Part shown: one piece after another, positions 40,862 to 46,680 of the stretch
Layout of the letters: every line of letters begins with the position of its first letter
Position numbering within the stretch: position 1 is the stretch's first letter
IMG/VR virus record: IMGVR_UViG_3300020037_002893
Reading direction: 5' to 3' (one strand)
Length of the DNA: 64,000 nt
DNA from: an uncultured virus (IMG/VR IMGVR_UViG_3300020037_002893)
Lineage: Duplodnaviria > Heunggongvirae > Uroviricota > Caudoviricetes
The notes under the pieces: model-generated
Databases searched by the model: none
The model's input: only the letters and a program-made list of their open reading frames with translations
What the model was told of the DNA's origin: nothing
Program-made: the position numbers and the translations under genes

Positions 40862-41626
40862 TCAAACACAGATCATCTCTACACCGTCCATGTCGGATAC
40901 AGAAAGACCTCCGTGCATCTGGACTTCGATGTAGGGGTTCCTGTTGGACAGCCCGACCACATCGGGAAGGAATACCCAAGGGCAAACCCGTTCTCCGAAG
41001 TCTGTTGTGTGCCCCACGATCAGCTTGTTGACGTTGTCCAAAGAGAATGGCCACGCCATGATATTCTGCTGGTTATCCCCAAAGGTGATACTCCCCGACT
41101 CCCAGACTTCCCTCTTCCACGTCACGAAGACATTTCCAAAGCTGCTAAGCATATAATTTCTCACATCCTCCGCATTGCTCATCCCGTCCCAAAAGAGAAC
41201 GCCGTGGCCGAGATCCTGGCAAACATTGCCAAAGGATCTCTTCTCGGTAAAAGCTCTGCACTGTTCGGGGGTTATACCCTGTGGAACGTATTTATTGTGC
41301 CACGTCGGGCCAGTGTCCCAGAGGGATTTCCATCCATCGTTGACCACCTTTGCATACACGTCCACTGGCATGGCTGTAATCACTCGGAGGTTCAACTTCT
41401 CACTGACGGGTCGCATCTCCTCCTTCCATCTATCCATCAGAAGCCTAGCTGTCTGTGGAGACACGCCACACTCTGCTCCGTCCTTCGTCTTTGCCTGTAG
41501 CTCATGCGGCCACCCGTAGCACAAGGCATCGGCAAGGGCAAGGCGGGAATCTCTCAGGTCTTTTCTTGTCTCTGGTGTATCTGCTCTCATGTCTCTTTTC
41601 TCTCTTTCTTTGGTTACACAATCCAC
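40862..41626 (-). CDS. hypothetical protein
   Basis: 254 aa ORF following the polymerase. Confidence 0.5.
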   Translation of the reverse strand: MDCVTKEREKRDMRADTPETRKDLRDSRLALADALCYGWPHELQAKTKDGAECGVSPQTARLLMDRWKEEMRPVSEKLNLRVITAMPVDVYAKVVNDGWKSLWDTGPTWHNKYVPQGITPEQCRAFTEKRSFGNVCQDLGHGVLFWDGMSNAEDVRNYMLSSFGNVFVTWKREVWESGSITFGDNQQNIMAWPFSLDNVNKLIVGHTTDFGERVCPWVFLPDVVGLSNRNPYIEVQMHGGLSVSDMDGVEMICV

Positions 41627-41628
41627 GA

Positions 41629-44600
41629 TTAAAAACAGGGCTTCCGATCAAGCTCGACATTATACCAGTCCGGCTTGATTGCTCTGACATGCTTCATCTT
41701 CTTCATCCCGCCAAGGCTATCCCCCGGCCCTGCCACATCTGCGAGCAGAGGGAGCGGTGGGACAATCCCGAACCACTCACGCAGGGGGTTTGATTCCATG
41801 TAGAATTTCACAGCAGATGCGGCCTCCTCCACATGATCCTCCCGAACGTGGATGATCCCAGCATCGTGGATAAACCCGCACGGGTGCATGACTCTGTGAT
41901 CGCAGTCTCGTGAGAAACGGGTCACGCCCATCAATCCAAGGTCGGAACCGAACCTCTGCACAGGCGAGTTGACGCTCTGCCGCTGAGCTTCCTTCTGCAC
42001 TCCCTCGTCGTCAGAGAAGACGGAAGGAAGTCTGCGAAGGGCTCCATGCAGCGCACGGACAAATCCATGCTCCATCACGAAGTTTTTATAGTCCCTGTGC
42101 CAATAGTCCAATCCTGGAAAAGTCTCGAAGAATGTCTCCCGGACTTGCTTAGCTTCCGAGTCAGTAAACTCGATGCCATAATCCGTCTTGGCGTAGACCT
42201 TGAACTTCACCCACCACATCCCGTAAATAAACCCGAAGTTGATCGCCTTGGCCTGAAAGCGTTTGAACTCATAAAAGTCATCCATCGTCTTGATGTCCGA
42301 TGGCATGTGTCCAAAGAAACTAGACTGGTATGGGTTCTTGTTTCCCGCGTAGCTGGCAAACTGTTCGACAGAGATTCCTAGCGTGCTGGCTGCCGTGGCC
42401 GCGTGAATATCTCCCCCGCTCCGGTAGATGGCCAACATCGTGGGCTCCATTGCCATCCACGCTGCAATGCGAAGCTCGATCTGGCTCAAGTCACATTCAA
42501 GGAAGACCCAGCCCTTCGCAGGAATAAACAACTTTCGGAATGCTTCCGCCAGCTCACCTCGTTTGGGAAAATTCTGAGCATTCGGATCAGAGTTGTGATG
42601 GAAAATACCGCACGCCGAATAAGAGTGATCCTCTTCTACCTGGATGTCATATACTGAATAGCTTCCGCAAGGGTCAACCCTCTCAATGTAGACTCCTCCG
42701 GCGAATGCTGATACCTCTGATGAATCGCCACATGCCCCTCCTTGCTCGTCAATGCTAAGTTGTCCGGGTGGTTGTTGGTCCGATCCCCGTCGATGTGATG
42801 GATCGGAAGGCTGTCGGGAAGATCCTCCACGCGAATCCCCAGCATCTCCGACATCACTACGCGGTGAACGAAGTGCCGCTTCCCCCTGACTACCCGAGTC
42901 AAATAGCCCCGACCATCCGCGCAATCCCCCTTCGCGTTCGCAGGTTTCTTCCCGAAGCAAGGGTTTTTGTCCCCTCGTTTTGATTCCGAATACTTCAAGG
43001 CTTTGAGTTTCGCTAACTCGTCCCTCGGAATGTCCTCCGCCAAAATGGCTATAACCGTGTGATGGGAGATAGCTACGCTCTCCGCTACCTGCCCCATGGT
43101 TTGAAGCGTGGTTCTGTAAAGATCGACTACCTTGCGGCGGATGCGCGGGTCTGAGAGGTGTTGTTTTGATACTGACATGCCCAAGCATACGCCAGTTTTC
43201 GCTTTCGGTAAAGAGTCTATGCTGAAAAGTAGAGCGCAAAACTTCCCCATTTGAAAGGTGGCTATCAAACATTTCCTGTGTTGGCTTGATGTAAGTCTCA
43301 AGCACCCTGCGCCACCTTCCACGATGGGTCCAAACCAAATCACCTGCCACCACGTCTGCAATGCGCTTCTTTCCTGTAAGCGTGTCGATGAGCACGTCGG
43401 CATGGAGACAGGATGCCGTGCGACCTGTCACCGTGCGGTGAGCCCAAAAGGAAGGATGGACATCGTTGCGTCCGGGGGGCAGGTGCTGCCAGAATCCTGT
43501 AGGCTTGGAGATTCTCCGCAGATATGGCCTTCCCTTCGACAAGTAAGCATATTGGGATACCCCGGAAGATTCCTGCCCTAGTAAGATAAGACTCTGCGGC
43601 TCCGTTGGCTCCCTTCCAGGAAGGACGATGCGCCTGCGTCTCGATGGGGTGTCCACGTCCTCAAGGACAATGCCCACCTCCTTGAAAGCGTCAGAGATTT
43701 TCTTGGGCCAGTTCCCCTTCTTCAACGGAGTGACCGGGGCGTCTGATAGTTGCCTTCCGGTGCCCACATAGCTGGTCCGCATCTTCTCCAGCTTCTTGTA
43801 TTCGATAAGGTCCCTGACGAACTCCCTGTCCGTGAAGAACGGAAGATGGTCATTGGCTGACGTGCTGGGAACCCTCTCCTCCGGTGCGAGTCTCTGCGTG
43901 GTCTTCGTGAAGACTACAGGCTCAAGACAGAGCCCCCTTGGATGATTAAACAGCACGTCAAGCAGGAAGATTGGGCTTCCGAAGTTGAGAATCTCTCTGG
44001 CCGACTTCCCTTTGTTCCTTGGGTCGTTCAGGTGATCCAGCTTCAAGGCAGGGTGAACAGCTTGCACCAACTTCAAGTAAAGCTCCTTTTCCTTCCTCTC
44101 CACCAACTTCCCCAGAACGCTAAGCTGCTCCAGATCGACGCGGAGCCCCTGCCGCTCCATTCCTACGAATGCCTTCAAGGCTGGCATCTGAACAGAGTGA
44201 AACGTCTTCCAGTTCCTGGTGTCTTTTTTACCCTCCTTGATAAGCACATCAGCGAGTCGAAACGTGGCATCCACGTCCCCGCATCCATAAGCGAGCATCT
44301 TGTCGTGTGGGACAAGGTCCATTCGGCTCTTGCCCTGATGAATGGGATCTCGGTTGAACTCGTCGGCGTATCCGCTCATGGCAGGAACCCATCGCCGGAT
44401 ACAATCATCGAGCCCCTTTATCTCCATGTTCTCATCGACAAGAAAAGCAAGCTGGATAGTGTCTGCCCACCAACTTGGGACTTCGATACCGAGGTTCAGG
44501 AAGGCGTGAACGTCAAACTTGAAATTGTGTCCAATAATCTGGGTAGCTGGATTGGAAAATATCTGCTTCAACTGTCCGATGAGCTTGCTTCGTGTCCGTA

Positions 44601-45342
44601 GACTCATGGACGGATAATATGCTCTGTCGAGAGGCACGCATACTGCCCTGCCCTCTCCCCAACAAAGTTGAGCCGTCAGAACTTTGAAGGAAGGATCGAA
44701 CCACTTCACGCCAAGAGTTTCCGTATCCACGACAAGCCTCTTCGGAGGCGAGTCTATCAGGAACTGAAGACAGTTGACCCAACGATACCCTGCCTCCCTC
44801 TCCTCCCCTTGGAAGACGGTGTCCTTCCATCCACTCCGTTGATATACTCCGGCCATTCTCATCTGAGACTCAAACACCTCTGCAATCTCAGGCTTCCGTA
44901 GCACCATGCGAGGGGAGTAAACAGGGAGAACCTTTCCATCGAAGTAAGCAGGGGGATCGAGTAACTGCCCAGCAATGCGGGTAATTTTTTGCGGCCTGCC
45001 CATCGTCTGCCGCACTGCGTCTTTCCCAAGACAGATGATAAGCTTCGCACCATCGCACTTGGCTACGATCTCGCGGAACTCGTCCGCATAGGAGGCGAGC
45101 CACTCGCCCACCTTCTTCTCGCTGCCGATGTATTCCTCCGGGATAGGGGGGCACGGGTTGATAAACACGGTGCCGTTGTTCACCAGCTCTGCCTTCTCTG
45201 CCGCATCTGCGAATACCTCCATCTCCCTCTGCCCGAGAACCCTGCCACGGTCCATTGTCCTCTGGGAGGGGATCTCAGTGATGACGAGTATCTTCGGTTG
45301 AGAAGACCCCCTCGCTCTGACGTTCTCTGTGCTGTAATCCAC
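41629..45342 (-). CDS. polA: family A DNA polymerase with N-terminal UDG-like domain, 3'-5' exonuclease and an intein
   Basis: Exo DTET, HNFKFD, YG.GD; motif A DLSQIELR, motif B KAINFGFIYG, motif C IHD; likely GTG start at 45342 after a promoter. Confidence 0.95.
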   Translation of the reverse strand: MDYSTENVRARGSSQPKILVITEIPSQRTMDRGRVLGQREMEVFADAAEKAELVNNGTVFINPCPPIPEEYIGSEKKVGEWLASYADEFREIVAKCDGAKLIICLGKDAVRQTMGRPQKITRIAGQLLDPPAYFDGKVLPVYSPRMVLRKPEIAEVFESQMRMAGVYQRSGWKDTVFQGEEREAGYRWVNCLQFLIDSPPKRLVVDTETLGVKWFDPSFKVLTAQLCWGEGRAVCVPLDRAYYPSMSLRTRSKLIGQLKQIFSNPATQIIGHNFKFDVHAFLNLGIEVPSWWADTIQLAFLVDENMEIKGLDDCIRRWVPAMSGYADEFNRDPIHQGKSRMDLVPHDKMLAYGCGDVDATFRLADVLIKEGKKDTRNWKTFHSVQMPALKAFVGMERQGLRVDLEQLSVLGKLVERKEKELYLKLVQAVHPALKLDHLNDPRNKGKSAREILNFGSPIFLLDVLFNHPRGLCLEPVVFTKTTQRLAPEERVPSTSANDHLPFFTDREFVRDLIEYKKLEKMRTSYVGTGRQLSDAPVTPLKKGNWPKKISDAFKEVGIVLEDVDTPSRRRRIVLPGREPTEPQSLILLGQESSGVSQYAYLSKGRPYLRRISKPTGFWQHLPPGRNDVHPSFWAHRTVTGRTASCLHADVLIDTLTGKKRIADVVAGDLVWTHRGRWRRVLETYIKPTQEMFDSHLSNGEVLRSTFQHRLFTESENWRMLGHVSIKTTPLRPAHPPQGSRSLQNHASNHGAGSGERSYLPSHGYSHFGGGHSEGRVSETQSLEVFGIKTRGQKPLLREETCEREGGLRGWSGLFDSGSQGEAALRSPRSDVGDAGDSRGGSSRQPSDPSHRRGSDQQPPGQLSIDEQGGACGDSSEVSAFAGGVYIERVDPCGSYSVYDIQVEEDHSYSACGIFHHNSDPNAQNFPKRGELAEAFRKLFIPAKGWVFLECDLSQIELRIAAWMAMEPTMLAIYRSGGDIHAATAASTLGISVEQFASYAGNKNPYQSSFFGHMPSDIKTMDDFYEFKRFQAKAINFGFIYGMWWVKFKVYAKTDYGIEFTDSEAKQVRETFFETFPGLDYWHRDYKNFVMEHGFVRALHGALRRLPSVFSDDEGVQKEAQRQSVNSPVQRFGSDLGLMGVTRFSRDCDHRVMHPCGFIHDAGIIHVREDHVEEAASAVKFYMESNPLREWFGIVPPLPLLADVAGPGDSLGGMKKMKHVRAIKPDWYNVELDRKPCF
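42592..43410 (-). mobile_element. 273-aa intein in the polymerase; its central region is a low-complexity linker overprinted by an HNH gene
   Basis: TGRTAS|CLHADV..., block B STFQH, VYDIQVEEDHSY...FHHN|SDPN; removal restores TGR.SSDPN.QN.P. Confidence 0.95.
42636..43178 (-). CDS. HNH homing endonuclease in an alternative frame inside the pol intein
   Basis: HTH-like N-terminus, NUMOD3-like SESKRG.KNP.FGK, and HR.V...HHIDGDRTNNHPDNL...H. Confidence 0.85.
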   Translation of the reverse strand: MSVSKQHLSDPRIRRKVVDLYRTTLQTMGQVAESVAISHHTVIAILAEDIPRDELAKLKALKYSESKRGDKNPCFGKKPANAKGDCADGRGYLTRVVRGKRHFVHRVVMSEMLGIRVEDLPDSLPIHHIDGDRTNNHPDNLALTSKEGHVAIHQRYQHSPEESTLRGLTLAEAIQYMTSR

Positions 45343-45405
45343 GTGCTTAGTTGGTAAGATAACCCTTTTTTGGGCAAAGTAAAATAAGCAAATTTGCAAA
45401 CGTTT

Positions 45406-46680
45406 TCAAATCATCCAGGAGGTAGTGCTTCCATCCCCAACGGGGGCCTCATCAGTCGAGTCCTCCACCTCGGAGAAGTCCACTGGGTTGAAACGAAAGT
45501 TAGTTGAAAAGGAAATCTCCTCACCCTCTCGAAACTTGATGAGATCCAGAACACGCCTCACGTTCTCATACGGGGCGAGTCCCCTCCGAAGGGTGATGAC
45601 TGCCGAGGCATCCTGAGAGATGGAATCTGACCCGGCTAAGTCCGTGGTATCCGCCACCGTGTTGTTGTCCTTCTTTTTGTTGCGGTTCATCTGGACGGTT
45701 AGAACTATCGGGATGCCCTTACGAATCGCTACCGTCTTTAGCTCAGCCATTACATTGGCTATGCTTTCCCATTTTGTGATGTATCCCTTCTTTGCTCCCT
45801 CTGTCGAAAGAAGATAAGCAGCGTCAATAAACGCCACGGTGGGATTCAGCTCCTCGATCATCGCCTCGACTGCGGTTACTTTCTTTGAAAAGTCACCAGC
45901 CATGAGATGGAAGTTTGACGCACCGTCAACCAGCTGTTGCACCTTTGCATCAAGCTGCGCTTCCCCGAAGTGAGATAGCTCCCCGGCCCGGATGAACCCC
46001 GGATTGATTCCAGAATGAATCCCGACGAACCTACGTGCGAATTGAAGTTGTCCCATCTCCATTGTCACAACAAGAGGCGTGGCTCCTGCTATCCATGCCT
46101 CGTAAGCCATCTTCGCCAGCACCCACGACTTGCCCATCCCGGTCCTCCCTGCGATAACTACCACATCGGTTGGTTGCCACCCCAGCGTCACAGCATCAAG
46201 GATGCCCCATCCGGTGGTGATTCCTCTCAAGCCAGGAAACTCCTTCGCAAGAAGGTAGTCGTTTCTTACATCGGTGGCTAGGCTGGCCAGCGTGGATACC
46301 GAATTGTTGGAGTGGCTTACTGTCGAAGCCAGCATCTGCCGGAGCACATCCAGAACGGTGTCCATCTGCCTTGCGTGCATGGCCGTGGATAGATCCGAGA
46401 ACCTGTCATTGATCCTCTTGTAAAGGTGCCTCTGCCGGAGCCTCTCAACGTAGTAACTGACGGGCTGCGTGGTTGCCCTGCCAAGAGGGAACCCGGCCTC
46501 GTCGAACATCTCCACGTCAGGGAGAACTCCATGCGCCGAGACATGCTGCCTAGCAAATTGGTAAGCCTCAGCCTCTGCTTCCTCGTCTACCTCCAGTAGG
46601 TAATCAGGACGGATGCCGAGCAGTGCCGGGACTGCCCCCTGCTGCACCACGGCGCGGATGAAACGAAGTCCAATGCTCAT
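45406..46680 (-). CDS. DnaB-like replicative helicase
   Basis: GI.TG...LD....G, AGRTGMGKS, MEM, ID, Q.NR, SD.I.QDA and K.R motifs. Confidence 0.9.
   Translation of the reverse strand: MSIGLRFIRAVVQQGAVPALLGIRPDYLLEVDEEAEAEAYQFARQHVSAHGVLPDVEMFDEAGFPLGRATTQPVSYYVERLRQRHLYKRINDRFSDLSTAMHARQMDTVLDVLRQMLASTVSHSNNSVSTLASLATDVRNDYLLAKEFPGLRGITTGWGILDAVTLGWQPTDVVVIAGRTGMGKSWVLAKMAYEAWIAGATPLVVTMEMGQLQFARRFVGIHSGINPGFIRAGELSHFGEAQLDAKVQQLVDGASNFHLMAGDFSKKVTAVEAMIEELNPTVAFIDAAYLLSTEGAKKGYITKWESIANVMAELKTVAIRKGIPIVLTVQMNRNKKKDNNTVADTTDLAGSDSISQDASAVITLRRGLAPYENVRRVLDLIKFREGEEISFSTNFRFNPVDFSEVEDSTDEAPVGDGSTTSWMI

What the first reader, a model, noticed from the sequence alone, without database searches (positions are those of the whole stretch)
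42592..43410. Hidden HNH endonuclease overprinted in an alternative frame inside the polymerase intein
Seen: the intein frame stays open, but its middle (about 165 aa) is G/S/R-rich and unstructured-looking. A second same-strand frame (ATG 43178 to TAG 42636, open from at least 43403) encodes a well-formed HTH + NUMOD3-like + HNH protein whose end overlaps the intein's C-terminal splicing block. Established: intein endonucleases are normally in-frame. I recall hidden out-of-frame HNH insertions in some phage methylases, which needs verifying. Inference: a dual-coding selfish element in which splicing removes the junk frame while the nuclease is made separately by internal initiation or frameshift. 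Standard annotation would miss it.
Basis: partly seen in the sequence, partly recalled or inferred. Interest (0 to 1): 0.87.

Follow-up and report, generated by a model that had tools for sequence, protein, structure and literature searches.

The report
Polymerase intein hiding off-frame HNH gene
A self-splicing protein insert (intein) in a phage DNA polymerase gene carries its mobility nuclease as a separate gene written one base out of step in the same DNA; this is real and kept by selection, but the layout is already described and this scan has met it before.

Summary
The family-A DNA polymerase ORF (41629..45399, minus strand) contains a 273-codon intein (42592..43410). Its ends fold as a mini-intein. 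Its middle, about 155 residues, is predicted disordered. A complete 180-aa HNH_3 endonuclease gene (43178..42636) lies in the +1 frame of the same strand.

It is not a sequencing artefact. Contigs from three independent metagenome studies that cover the region show no indels. Nineteen distinct loci keep the same layout, including relatives only 31-57% identical.

Selection is frame-specific. In the 18 loci tested, the polymerase frame has no stops because T is never used at HNH codon position 3 before AA/AG/GA codons. Amino-acid conservation lies in the HNH frame: 44% identity against 22% in the polymerase frame.

The same metagenomes also hold an exact intein-free allele and an in-frame 390-nt deletion that removes the HNH. 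Full, mini and empty alleles therefore coexist.

A sister clade of the HNH sits in group I introns or splits of T7-like phage polymerases, one to six codons from the intein sites.

Out-of-frame intein endonucleases are in print (a 1998 paper cited by two 2025-26 preprints), and this scan has logged at least seven same-layout cases plus a split form. I rate it a new member of a known kind, of moderate interest.

The parts
41629..45399 (-). Family-A DNA polymerase ORF with an N-terminal UDG-superfamily domain, a 3'-5' exonuclease and the polymerase domain. The true start codon was not determined.
   Evidence: DNA_pol_A E 4.4e-46, DNA_pol_A_exo1 E 7.3e-13, UDG E 3.5e-6.
42592..43410 (-). Intein of 273 codons, inserted in the motif TGRTAS|SDPNAQNFP.
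   Evidence: C1, T61/H64 and H272-N273 are conserved and Ser follows at +1; the ordered part matches solved mini-inteins at Z 17.5; a metagenome contig lacks exactly these 819 nt.
43180..43410 (-). N-terminal splicing domain (intein residues 1-77), polymerase frame.
   Evidence: pLDDT 87-97, beta strands; blocks A and B conserved.
42636..43178 (-). HNH homing-endonuclease gene (180 aa) in the +1 frame relative to the polymerase. It has an N-terminal helical domain and a C-terminal HNH_3 domain.
   Evidence: HNH_3 above cut-off; 22 protein homologues; invariant H127 H128 N136 N140 H149 H153; AF2 mean pLDDT 86.
42729..42872 (-). HNH_3 catalytic core (HNH residues 103-150).
42700..43164 (-). Stop-free linker in the polymerase frame (intein residues 83-237). 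It is not conserved and is predicted disordered.
   Evidence: pLDDT 33-49; 0 stops and 0 T at HNH position 3 in 48 at-risk contexts; 22% identity against 44% in the HNH frame.
42592..42690 (-). C-terminal splicing region (intein residues 241-273).
   Evidence: pLDDT 92-97; V253, D255, D261, H272 and N273 invariant.
42636..42690 (-). Stretch where both frames encode structured protein: the HNH C-terminus (AEAIQYMTSR and stop) over the structured C-terminal strands of the intein.
42740..43129 (-). A 390-nt segment (130 codons) missing in a mini-intein allele found in two metagenome studies. It is flanked by the 6-nt direct repeat gcaagg.
   Evidence: table 5 (X1 depth 35.4, X3 depth 3.5); repeat read.

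Best explanation
This is a mobile intein of a phage family-A DNA polymerase, built from two overlapping genes on one strand.

**Polymerase frame.** It encodes a class-1-type HINT splicing domain: about 77 N-terminal and about 33 C-terminal residues. These are joined by a stop-free, unconserved, disordered linker of about 155 residues. Ribosomes translating the polymerase read straight through. The intein then presumably removes itself, linker included, and restores the motif TGRTAS-SDPNAQ.

**+1 frame.** It encodes a free-standing HNH homing endonuclease with its own start and stop codons. The enzyme is presumably translated by internal initiation. It would cut or nick intein-free polymerase alleles in or near the same motif, so that repair copies the intein and the nuclease gene together.

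**How the overlap is kept.** The rule is simple. A stop in the polymerase frame needs T at HNH codon position 3 followed by a codon starting AA, AG or GA. Synonymous choice in the HNH gene avoids exactly that.

**Shown here:** the two frames, frame-specific selection, stop avoidance, the folds, co-inheritance of intein and HNH, and the coexistence of full, HNH-deleted and empty alleles.

**Inferred:** splicing, the mode of HNH translation, the cleavage site and ongoing homing.
For: **1. Recurrence.**
- Of 25 loci with a near-full-length match to the HNH, 18 have the same relative frame open across the whole HNH as part of a 477-2045-aa ORF. The third frame is open for only 0-111 aa.
- One more nested locus was found among 5 genome-collection loci examined.
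- All 16 further host ORFs scanned are DNA_pol_A. Twelve of them also hit Intein_splicing and one hits Hint_2 only. In most, the resumed polymerase match starts near profile position 123.

**2. Stop avoidance.**
- In the 18 nested genes there is no T at HNH position 3 in 43-59 at-risk contexts each. Elsewhere T3 is about 15-36%.
- Synonymous shuffles are stop-free in 0-135 of 20000.
- The 7 non-nested relatives carry 15-29 stops in that frame.

**3. Frame-specific selection.** Over 153 pairs, nucleotide differences at HNH codon positions 1/2/3 are 0.447/0.389/0.640. Amino-acid identity is 0.441 in the HNH frame and 0.219 in the polymerase frame. The HNH frame is the more conserved in 153 of 153 pairs.

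**4. Folds.**
- The HNH model has mean pLDDT 86.
- The polymerase-frame model is ordered at residues 1-80 and 241-273 and disordered between.
- The ordered part matches the gp41-1 intein at Z 17.5, rmsd 1.9 over 119 residues. Thirty chains reach Z>=8.

**5. Not an artefact.** Twenty runs from 12 studies hold the stretch or part of it. Contigs from 4 studies were laid: three cover 25-30 of 30 bins and the fourth covers only 6 bins outside the intein. None shows an indel.

**6. Population picture.**
- One contig joins 42588 to 43412 with 4 letters between. That is a net loss of 819 nt, exactly the intein. It reads A-S-S-D-P with synonymous changes in both junction Ser codons.
- Other contigs, in two studies, skip 390 nt in frame and remove the HNH core.

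**7. The module travels together.** Mean pairwise identity is 0.43 for the HNH, 0.43 for the splicing domain, and 0.28 and 0.31 for the flanking exteins (49 pairs). HNH identity correlates with splicing-domain identity at r 0.67 and with the C-extein at r 0.19.

**8. Own start signals.** A start codon is present in 17 of 17. An SD-like stretch (duplex energy <= -6.5) lies upstream in 11 of 17.
Against: - No expression data exist for the HNH and no splicing assay exists for the intein.
- The window's own HNH start has no SD-like sequence (best -2.4).
- No sigma-70-like promoter lies in 42400-43700.
- In run X1 the full allele is the minority: depth 7.6, against 35.4 for the HNH-deleted allele and 32.4 for the empty allele. 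The element may be on its way out in that population. These are contig word depths, so they are only rough.
- The structural match of the HNH model to a solved homing enzyme is weak. I-HmuI 1u3e is the top hit at Foldseek E 0.12, probability 0.96.
- A profile search of solved structures gave nothing useful.
- The empty-allele contig is only 91 nt long.
Confidence: 0.82

Rival explanations
1. Artefact: an ordinary in-frame HNH intein with two compensating frameshift errors in the assembly.
For: It would restore the textbook layout. In-frame HNH inteins exist, for example the second intein of the L010 polymerase.
Against: - Contigs from three independent studies that cover the region show no indel.
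- Nineteen distinct loci from different assemblies keep the same frame offset, with the HNH start and stop at homologous places.
- The search for longer, fused forms of the HNH found none, which is weak evidence.
Confidence: 0.01
2. The HNH is made by programmed ribosomal frameshifting out of the polymerase frame. The product would be a fusion to the N-extein and intein N-domain, or an in-frame domain after two shifts.
For: In the window the HNH frame is open 75 codons upstream of the ATG, to 43403. The window has no SD-like sequence.
Against: - In most relatives the HNH frame is closed within about 1-22 codons upstream of the start; L091 (about 11) and L087 and L007 (22 each) are the longest.
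- A start codon is conserved in 17 of 17, and SD-like stretches occur in 11 of 17.
- I saw no conserved slippery site on reading the sequences; no dedicated scan was run.
- The HNH has its own stop, so a second shift would be needed to rejoin the intein.
Confidence: 0.05
3. In this particular phage the HNH gene is a silent relic. The intein now persists only because precise loss is rare.
For: The HNH-deleted allele outnumbers the full one in X1. The window has no SD-like sequence and no promoter-like site.
Against: The window's ORF is intact and carries every invariant residue of the family. The codon-position pattern across the family is that of a protein under purifying selection. A decayed copy looks different: L085 has 15 stops in the polymerase frame.
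Confidence: 0.08
4. The insert is removed at the RNA level as a group I intron, as in the sister clade of this HNH in T7-like phages.
For: Related HNH genes lie in joined or split polymerase genes. Sub-threshold group I matches were found there: RF00028 at 31.9 bits, E 3.8e-6 in Pf-WMP3 and 26.6 bits, E 1.6e-4 in Providencia phage PS3.
Against: - The polymerase frame is open here and encodes conserved intein blocks with a HINT fold.
- No group I match at E<=1 in 41500-45500.
- The empty allele differs by exactly 273 codons.
Confidence: 0.01

Closest known systems
Non-canonical inteins with a same-strand, out-of-frame homing endonuclease. Two cases: the cyanobacterial dnaX intein with a LAGLIDADG enzyme in a '+2 ORF' (bioRxiv 10.64898/2026.09.14.751524; abstract and sections 11, 14, 17 read; it cites Gorbalenya 1998). 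And actinobacteriophage inteins with an endonuclease VII-like enzyme in 'frame 3' (bioRxiv 10.1101/2025.01.02.630785; passages read).
   Same: - Splicing domain in the host frame.
- Disordered, unconserved middle.
- Complete nuclease ORF in another frame of the same strand.
- Purifying selection in the nuclease frame.
- Full, mini and empty alleles coexisting in one population (reported for dnaX in Microcystis).
   Different: - The nuclease here is HNH_3. Those papers report HNH only in frame.
- The host is a phage family-A polymerase, not dnaX, terminase, capsid, thymidylate synthase or Pol III alpha.
- In the passages I read I did not see the T-at-position-3 avoidance rule or the sister clade in group I introns. 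I did not read either paper in full, and their supplements were not seen.
ShiLan-type out-of-frame HNH insertion in actinobacteriophage DNA methylases (PMC11855218; abstract and passages read).
   Same: An HNH gene in another frame of an insertion that stays open in the host frame. The host-frame product is a poorly structured loop.
   Different: ShiLan has no detectable splicing domain and is thought to stay in the protein. Here a complete intein flanks the nuclease gene.
HNH genes in group I introns or splits of T7-like phage DNA polymerase genes: Pf-WMP3 NC_009551, Providencia PS3 NC_048148, Leptolyngbya Dor1 PQ195596. Bonocora and Shub 2004 is known to me only as a reference listed in PMC11855218. 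I-HmuI (1u3e) is the nearest solved structure.
   Same: - The HNH proteins are homologous, at 30-37% identity over most of the length.
- The host gene is the same.
- The same 12-codon motif, TGRxSSxxPNLQ, is interrupted.
   Different: - The carrier is RNA-spliced or the gene is split, and the polymerase frame is closed: 22-29 stops in the 6 distant metagenomic non-nested relatives.
- These HNHs form a separate clade with 100/99 support.
- The intron site is P|N or L|Q, 1 to 6 codons from the intein sites.
Fractured genes: split inteins with a free-standing endonuclease gene between the halves. Dassa et al. 2009 is known to me only as cited in the 2025 preprint.
   Same: A separate nuclease gene sits where the endonuclease domain of an intein would be.
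   Different: Here the polymerase frame is continuous, so the intein is contiguous rather than split.
Hamiltonella phage APSE-1: polymerase P45 with nested same-strand P46 'HNH endonuclease'
   Same: A cultured phage whose record annotates a nuclease ORF inside a family-A polymerase ORF on the same strand.
   Different: P46 has no BLASTP similarity to this HNH. It lies in a different part of the polymerase. I did not confirm an intein there; Pfam listed none at E<=0.01.

Membership tests
Intein (HINT splicing domain) | N-terminal Cys or Ser nucleophile (block A) | tested here: met
   C1 is invariant in 15 of 15 aligned polymerase-frame inteins.
Intein (HINT splicing domain) | Block B Thr-x-x-His | tested here: met
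   T61 is nearly invariant and H64 invariant. The block names are recalled.
Intein (HINT splicing domain) | C-terminal His-Asn followed by Ser, Thr or Cys at +1 | tested here: met
   H272 and N273 are invariant. The +1 residue is Ser or Cys in 15 of 15.
Intein (HINT splicing domain) | HINT fold | tested here: met
   AF2 pLDDT is 87-97 at the two ends. Matches: gp41-1 intein Z 17.5, Mtu RecA mini-intein 17.4, NpuDnaB 17.2.
Intein (HINT splicing domain) | Exact in-frame insertion in a conserved host site, with intein-free alleles | tested here: met
   A contig lacks exactly 819 nt and reads TAS-SDP.
Intein (HINT splicing domain) | Protein splicing | not testable with these tools
   Needs expression of the precursor.
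HNH endonuclease (Pfam HNH_3, PF13392) | Profile match above the curated cut-off | tested here: met
   37.6 bits against 24.8. L002 and L010 homologues score 39.7 and 43 bits.
HNH endonuclease (Pfam HNH_3, PF13392) | Conserved His, Asn and His of the active site | tested here: met
   H127, H128, N136, N140, H149 and H153 are invariant in 24 sequences. Which of them are catalytic was not determined.
HNH endonuclease (Pfam HNH_3, PF13392) | Site-specific cleavage of the empty allele (homing) | not testable with these tools
   Needs the enzyme and the empty-site DNA.
Out-of-frame homing endonuclease inteins (the 2025-26 preprints and the 1998 paper they cite) | Complete nuclease ORF in another frame of the same strand, over an unstructured intein middle | tested here: met
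Out-of-frame homing endonuclease inteins (the 2025-26 preprints and the 1998 paper they cite) | Purifying selection in the nuclease frame, relaxed in the host frame | tested here: met
   153 of 153 pairs.
ShiLan-type out-of-frame HNH insertion | No splicing domain in the host frame | tested here: not met
   A complete splicing domain is present.
Fractured gene / split intein with free-standing endonuclease | Host gene broken into two ORFs | tested here: not met
   The polymerase frame has 0 stops across the insert.
Group I intron with HNH ORF | Group I RNA structure | tested here: inconclusive
   No RF00028 match at E<=1 in 41500-45500. ORF-bearing introns score poorly, as the sub-threshold hits in Pf-WMP3 and PS3 show.
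Group I intron with HNH ORF | Exon frame interrupted by the insert | tested here: not met
   The frame is open and encodes intein blocks.

The most novel reading that the evidence does not exclude
One polymerase-targeting HNH lineage has used two different splicing carriers at the same 12-codon motif: group I introns in T7-like phages and a mini-intein here.

On this reading the overprint is what results when a free-standing nuclease gene invades a mini-intein. It is then locked in by avoidance of T at its third codon positions. There is also a further, weaker selection that keeps the read-through linker hydrophilic. The linker is less hydrophobic than stop-free synonymous recodings at the 0.05 level in 7 of 17 loci.

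The intein also occupies four nearby positions in the motif. This suggests repeated re-insertion around a single nuclease target.
Probability: 0.4. Interest if true: 0.6.

Novelty: new member of a known kind. Interest (0 to 1): 0.42.

Why it matters
It adds a widespread, environmentally abundant example of an intein whose nuclease is a separate overlapping gene. It has an HNH enzyme and a family-A polymerase host, and I did not find that pairing in the papers read.

Three points are useful beyond a catalogue entry:
- **A checkable rule.** No T at nuclease codon position 3 before AA/AG/GA explains why the +1 offset is cheap to maintain. Annotation pipelines could screen for it.
- **A population snapshot.** The same metagenomes hold full, nuclease-deleted and empty alleles. 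That is the picture the homing-cycle model predicts.
- **A sister clade in another carrier.** The closest relatives of the nuclease sit in introns of the same gene, a few codons away. This supports the view that inteins and their nucleases are separate partners that associate secondarily.

Practically, such 'mini-inteins with junk loops' are likely to be mis-annotated as decaying inteins.

Tried and rejected
- **Fused, in-frame forms.** A search for longer forms of the HNH scored none of 2894 candidates at E<=0.001. The tool calls this weak evidence.
- **Own assembly.** It is not held (an error). The nearest record, G001, is the 42-kb IMG/VR contig already fetched as L001.
- **Group I introns at gathering score.** No match in 8 intron-type or free loci. 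L014 gave only 17.2 bits, E 0.1 at the permissive threshold.
- **Structural placement of the HNH.** Foldseek on the HNH model gave no match at E<=0.001. The profile search of solved structures gave only pyocin AP41 at E 0.076.
- **Promoter scan.** No promoter-like site in 42400-43700. One terminator-like site was found, no more than in shuffles.
- **L085.** I first took it for a split-intein intermediate because its HNH is 57% identical. It has no intein remnant on either side and no downstream polymerase. It nests inside the window/L002 clade. I read it as a displaced or decayed copy.
- **Literature searches.**
  - 'intein, HNH, alternative reading frame': 0 papers.
  - 'intein, family A DNA polymerase, phage': 8 papers held the terms, 5 were listed, and none of the listed titles or abstracts was relevant.
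  - 'intein, HNH, DNA polymerase, reading frame, metagenom': 27 papers. The one I opened, PMC6293099, describes an in-frame HNH intein in a dCTP deaminase.
- **X5.** It covered only 6 of 30 bins, all outside the intein.
Full report
**What is there**

On the minus strand, ORF 41629..45399 (1256 aa) is a family-A DNA polymerase. It has an N-terminal UDG-superfamily domain and a 3'-5' exonuclease.

It is interrupted by 273 codons (43410..42592). These begin with Cys and end with His-Asn, and a Ser follows.

A second frame of the same strand runs from ATG 43178 to TAG 42636 and gives a 180-aa protein.
- It matches Pfam HNH_3 above the curated cut-off: 37.6 against 24.8 bits.
- It matches PHROG 7545 HNH endonuclease at E 1.1e-16.
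- The NUMOD3 match is below threshold.
- The HTH is supported only by a helical N-terminal domain in the model and by near-threshold HTH hits in a homologue.

The HNH codons start one base after the polymerase codons. GGG CAT GTC in the polymerase frame contains the ATG.

**Folds**

- With an alignment of 24 family members, the HNH frame folds with mean pLDDT 86.
- With 15 polymerase-frame inteins, the intein frame gives pLDDT 87-97 for residues 1-80 and 92-97 for 241-273. Residues 83-237 score 33-49 with no secondary structure.
- The ordered part superposes on solved mini-inteins: gp41-1 at Z 17.5, rmsd 1.9 over 119 residues; Mtu RecA at 17.4; NpuDnaB at 17.2. Thirty chains reach Z>=8.
- So the polymerase frame encodes a mini-intein with a long disordered loop, and the other frame encodes a folded nuclease.

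**Not an artefact**

- Twenty public runs from 12 studies (wastewater, freshwater, sediment) hold the stretch or part of it.
- I laid contigs from four studies. Three cover 25-30 of 30 bins. The fourth covers only 6 bins outside the intein.
- They show substitutions only and no inserted or missing letters (table 4).
- An identical copy is in IMG/VR (L001).

**Recurrence**

- The protein collection holds 22 homologues of about 180 aa, at 37-74% identity.
- I fetched DNA for relatives from viral, metagenome and genome collections.
- Of 25 loci with a near-full-length match, window included, 18 have the same relative frame open across the whole HNH as part of a 477-2045-aa ORF.
- One more, L169, was found among 5 further loci examined.
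- All 16 further host ORFs that I scanned are DNA_pol_A. Twelve also hit Intein_splicing and one hits Hint_2 only. In most, the resumed polymerase match starts near profile position 123.
- The other 7 of the 25 are not nested.

**Selection (unless stated)**

- In the 18 nested genes the polymerase frame has no stop over the HNH ORF. The third frame has 3-20.
- A stop in the polymerase frame needs T at HNH position 3 followed by AA, AG or GA. In 43-59 such contexts per gene there is not one T. Elsewhere T at position 3 is about 15-36%.
- Synonymous-codon shuffles leave the frame open in 0-135 of 20000. For the window the figure is 0, with a mean of 7.7 stops.
- The 7 non-nested relatives have 15-29 stops in that frame.
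- Across 153 pairs of nested genes, nucleotide differences at HNH positions 1/2/3 are 0.447/0.389/0.640. Identity is 0.441 in the HNH frame against 0.219 in the polymerase frame. The HNH frame is higher in all 153 pairs.
- The polymerase frame of the linker is therefore kept open but not kept the same.
- The linker's G/S/R richness follows largely from the overlap. Polymerase codon position 2 is HNH position 1, which is T in only 15% of codons.
- The linker is also less hydrophobic than stop-free synonymous recodings at the 0.05 level in 7 of 17 loci. This is a weak sign of extra selection, and the loci are related.

**Mobility**

- Mean pairwise identity is 0.43 for the HNH and 0.43 for the splicing domain. 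It is 0.28 and 0.31 for 150 residues of flanking extein on either side (49 pairs).
- HNH identity tracks splicing-domain identity (r 0.67) but not the C-extein (r 0.19).
- The window and L002 share 57% (HNH) and 56% (splicing domain) but only 32% in the C-extein.
- The insertion point varies within the motif TGRxSSxxPNLQ. It lies between residues 4|5 in three loci, 5|6 in most, 6|7 in the window, L092 and L091, and after PN in L008.

**Alleles in the wild**

- In run X1 a 91-nt contig (depth 32.4) joins 42588 to 43412 with four other letters between. The net loss is 819 nt, exactly the intein. It reads Ala-Ser-Ser-Asp-Pro, with synonymous differences in both junction Ser codons.
- In X1 (depth 35.4) and X3 (depth 3.5), contigs join 42739 to 43130. 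They skip 390 nt between two copies of gcaagg.
  - This keeps the polymerase frame.
  - It cuts the HNH ORF to about 50 codons without its core.
  - It leaves a 143-residue mini-intein.
- The full HNH piece has depth 7.6 in X1.
- Full, mini and empty alleles thus coexist. Contig depths are rough.

**Relatives in another carrier**

- In cultured phages the nearest relatives (30-37% identity) lie inside polymerase genes of T7-like phages. The genes are annotated as joined coding sequences in Pf-WMP3 and Providencia PS3, and as a split gene in Leptolyngbya Dor1.
- At a permissive threshold the group I intron model matches there: 31.9 bits, E 3.8e-6 and 26.6 bits, E 1.6e-4. Both are below the gathering score of 50. 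Nothing reached gathering.
- Four metagenomic non-nested relatives have a polymerase N-part immediately upstream of the HNH. Two of them, L013 and L014, also have a detected C-part downstream.
- The exon junctions fall at P|N in Pf-WMP3, Dor1 and the four metagenomic loci. The junction is L|Q in PS3. That is 3 to 6 codons downstream of most intein sites, and one codon from the L008 site.
- In a tree of 27 HNH proteins the intron or split type forms one clade (100/99). The remnant L085 nests inside the window/L002 clade (100/100).
- The window region has no group I match at E<=1.

**Expression**

This is inferred.
- A start codon stands at the aligned position in 17 of 17 complete nested genes: 14 ATG, 2 GTG, 1 TTG.
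- An SD-like stretch lies within 20 nt upstream in 11 of 17. It is absent in the window, L002, L005, L006, L088 and L090.
- No promoter-like site was found.

**Known or new**

- The layout is in print.
  - The dnaX preprint describes a LAGLIDADG enzyme in a '+2 ORF', frame-specific selection and three coexisting alleles. It cites Gorbalenya 1998.
  - The ShiLan paper describes an out-of-frame HNH without any splicing domain.
- My searches found no paper on an out-of-frame HNH in a polymerase intein. Supplements of the preprints were not seen.
- Notes of this scan list at least seven other genomes with the same layout, in polymerase, terminase and helicase inteins, plus a split form. These are leads, not support.
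- One of those leads, APSE-1 P45/P46, is indeed an annotated nested ORF. It is unrelated to this HNH.

**Verdict**

It is a new member of a known kind. The added value lies in the stop-avoidance rule, the three-allele snapshot and the intron-borne sister clade.

Noticed in passing
L002:4155-5534 (intein), L002:4264-5481 (ORF): The same polymerase has a further intein at the KVGNFS|..|SAYG site. A different 405-aa HNH (phrog_374 E 1.3e-18, no Pfam hit) lies in the same +1 offset. The polymerase frame has 0 stops, with 0 of 122 at-risk T3 against 76 of 282 elsewhere.
   Followed up: partly
L002:3-6140: This polymerase ORF (2045 aa) appears to hold three inteins. The first looks like an ordinary in-frame one with a LAGLIDADG-like motif. 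That is judged by eye only and was not scanned.
   Followed up: no
L010:1093-4758: This host polymerase carries the nested-HNH intein and also a second intein with an in-frame HNH_3 domain (residues 807-850, E 9.2e-15). Both layouts therefore occur in one gene.
   Followed up: no
L085:1742-3049: A polymerase N-terminal fragment ends at the intein site (TGRSSSR, then a stop). About 190 nt of AT-rich non-coding DNA follow, then a free HNH 57% identical to the window's. There is no intein remnant and no downstream polymerase. It nests within the window/L002 clade.
   Followed up: partly
L008:2251-3099: Here the homologous intein plus nested HNH sits after TGRLSSTDPN. That is five codons downstream of the usual site and next to the intron site of T7-like phages.
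   Followed up: partly
window 42636-43403 (-): In the window alone the HNH frame stays open 75 codons upstream of its conserved start, across the whole N-terminal splicing domain. In relatives it closes within about 1-22 codons. Probably chance.
   Followed up: partly
window 44900-45310 (-), also L005 and L009: The polymerase has an N-terminal UDG-superfamily domain fused to the exonuclease and polymerase domains (PF03167, E 3.5e-6 in the window).
   Followed up: no
L168:2438-3001: A free-standing relative of the HNH (46% identity over residues 1-153) lies on a 636-kb contig of Erythrobacter litoralis. No polymerase-frame ORF runs over it. Its context was not examined.
   Followed up: no
L248:4828-7809 (NC_000935): APSE-1 polymerase P45 has an annotated nested same-strand ORF, P46 'HNH endonuclease' (140 aa). 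It is unrelated to this HNH by BLASTP. Pfam shows only weak HTH hits for P46 and no intein hit for P45 at E<=0.01.
   Followed up: partly
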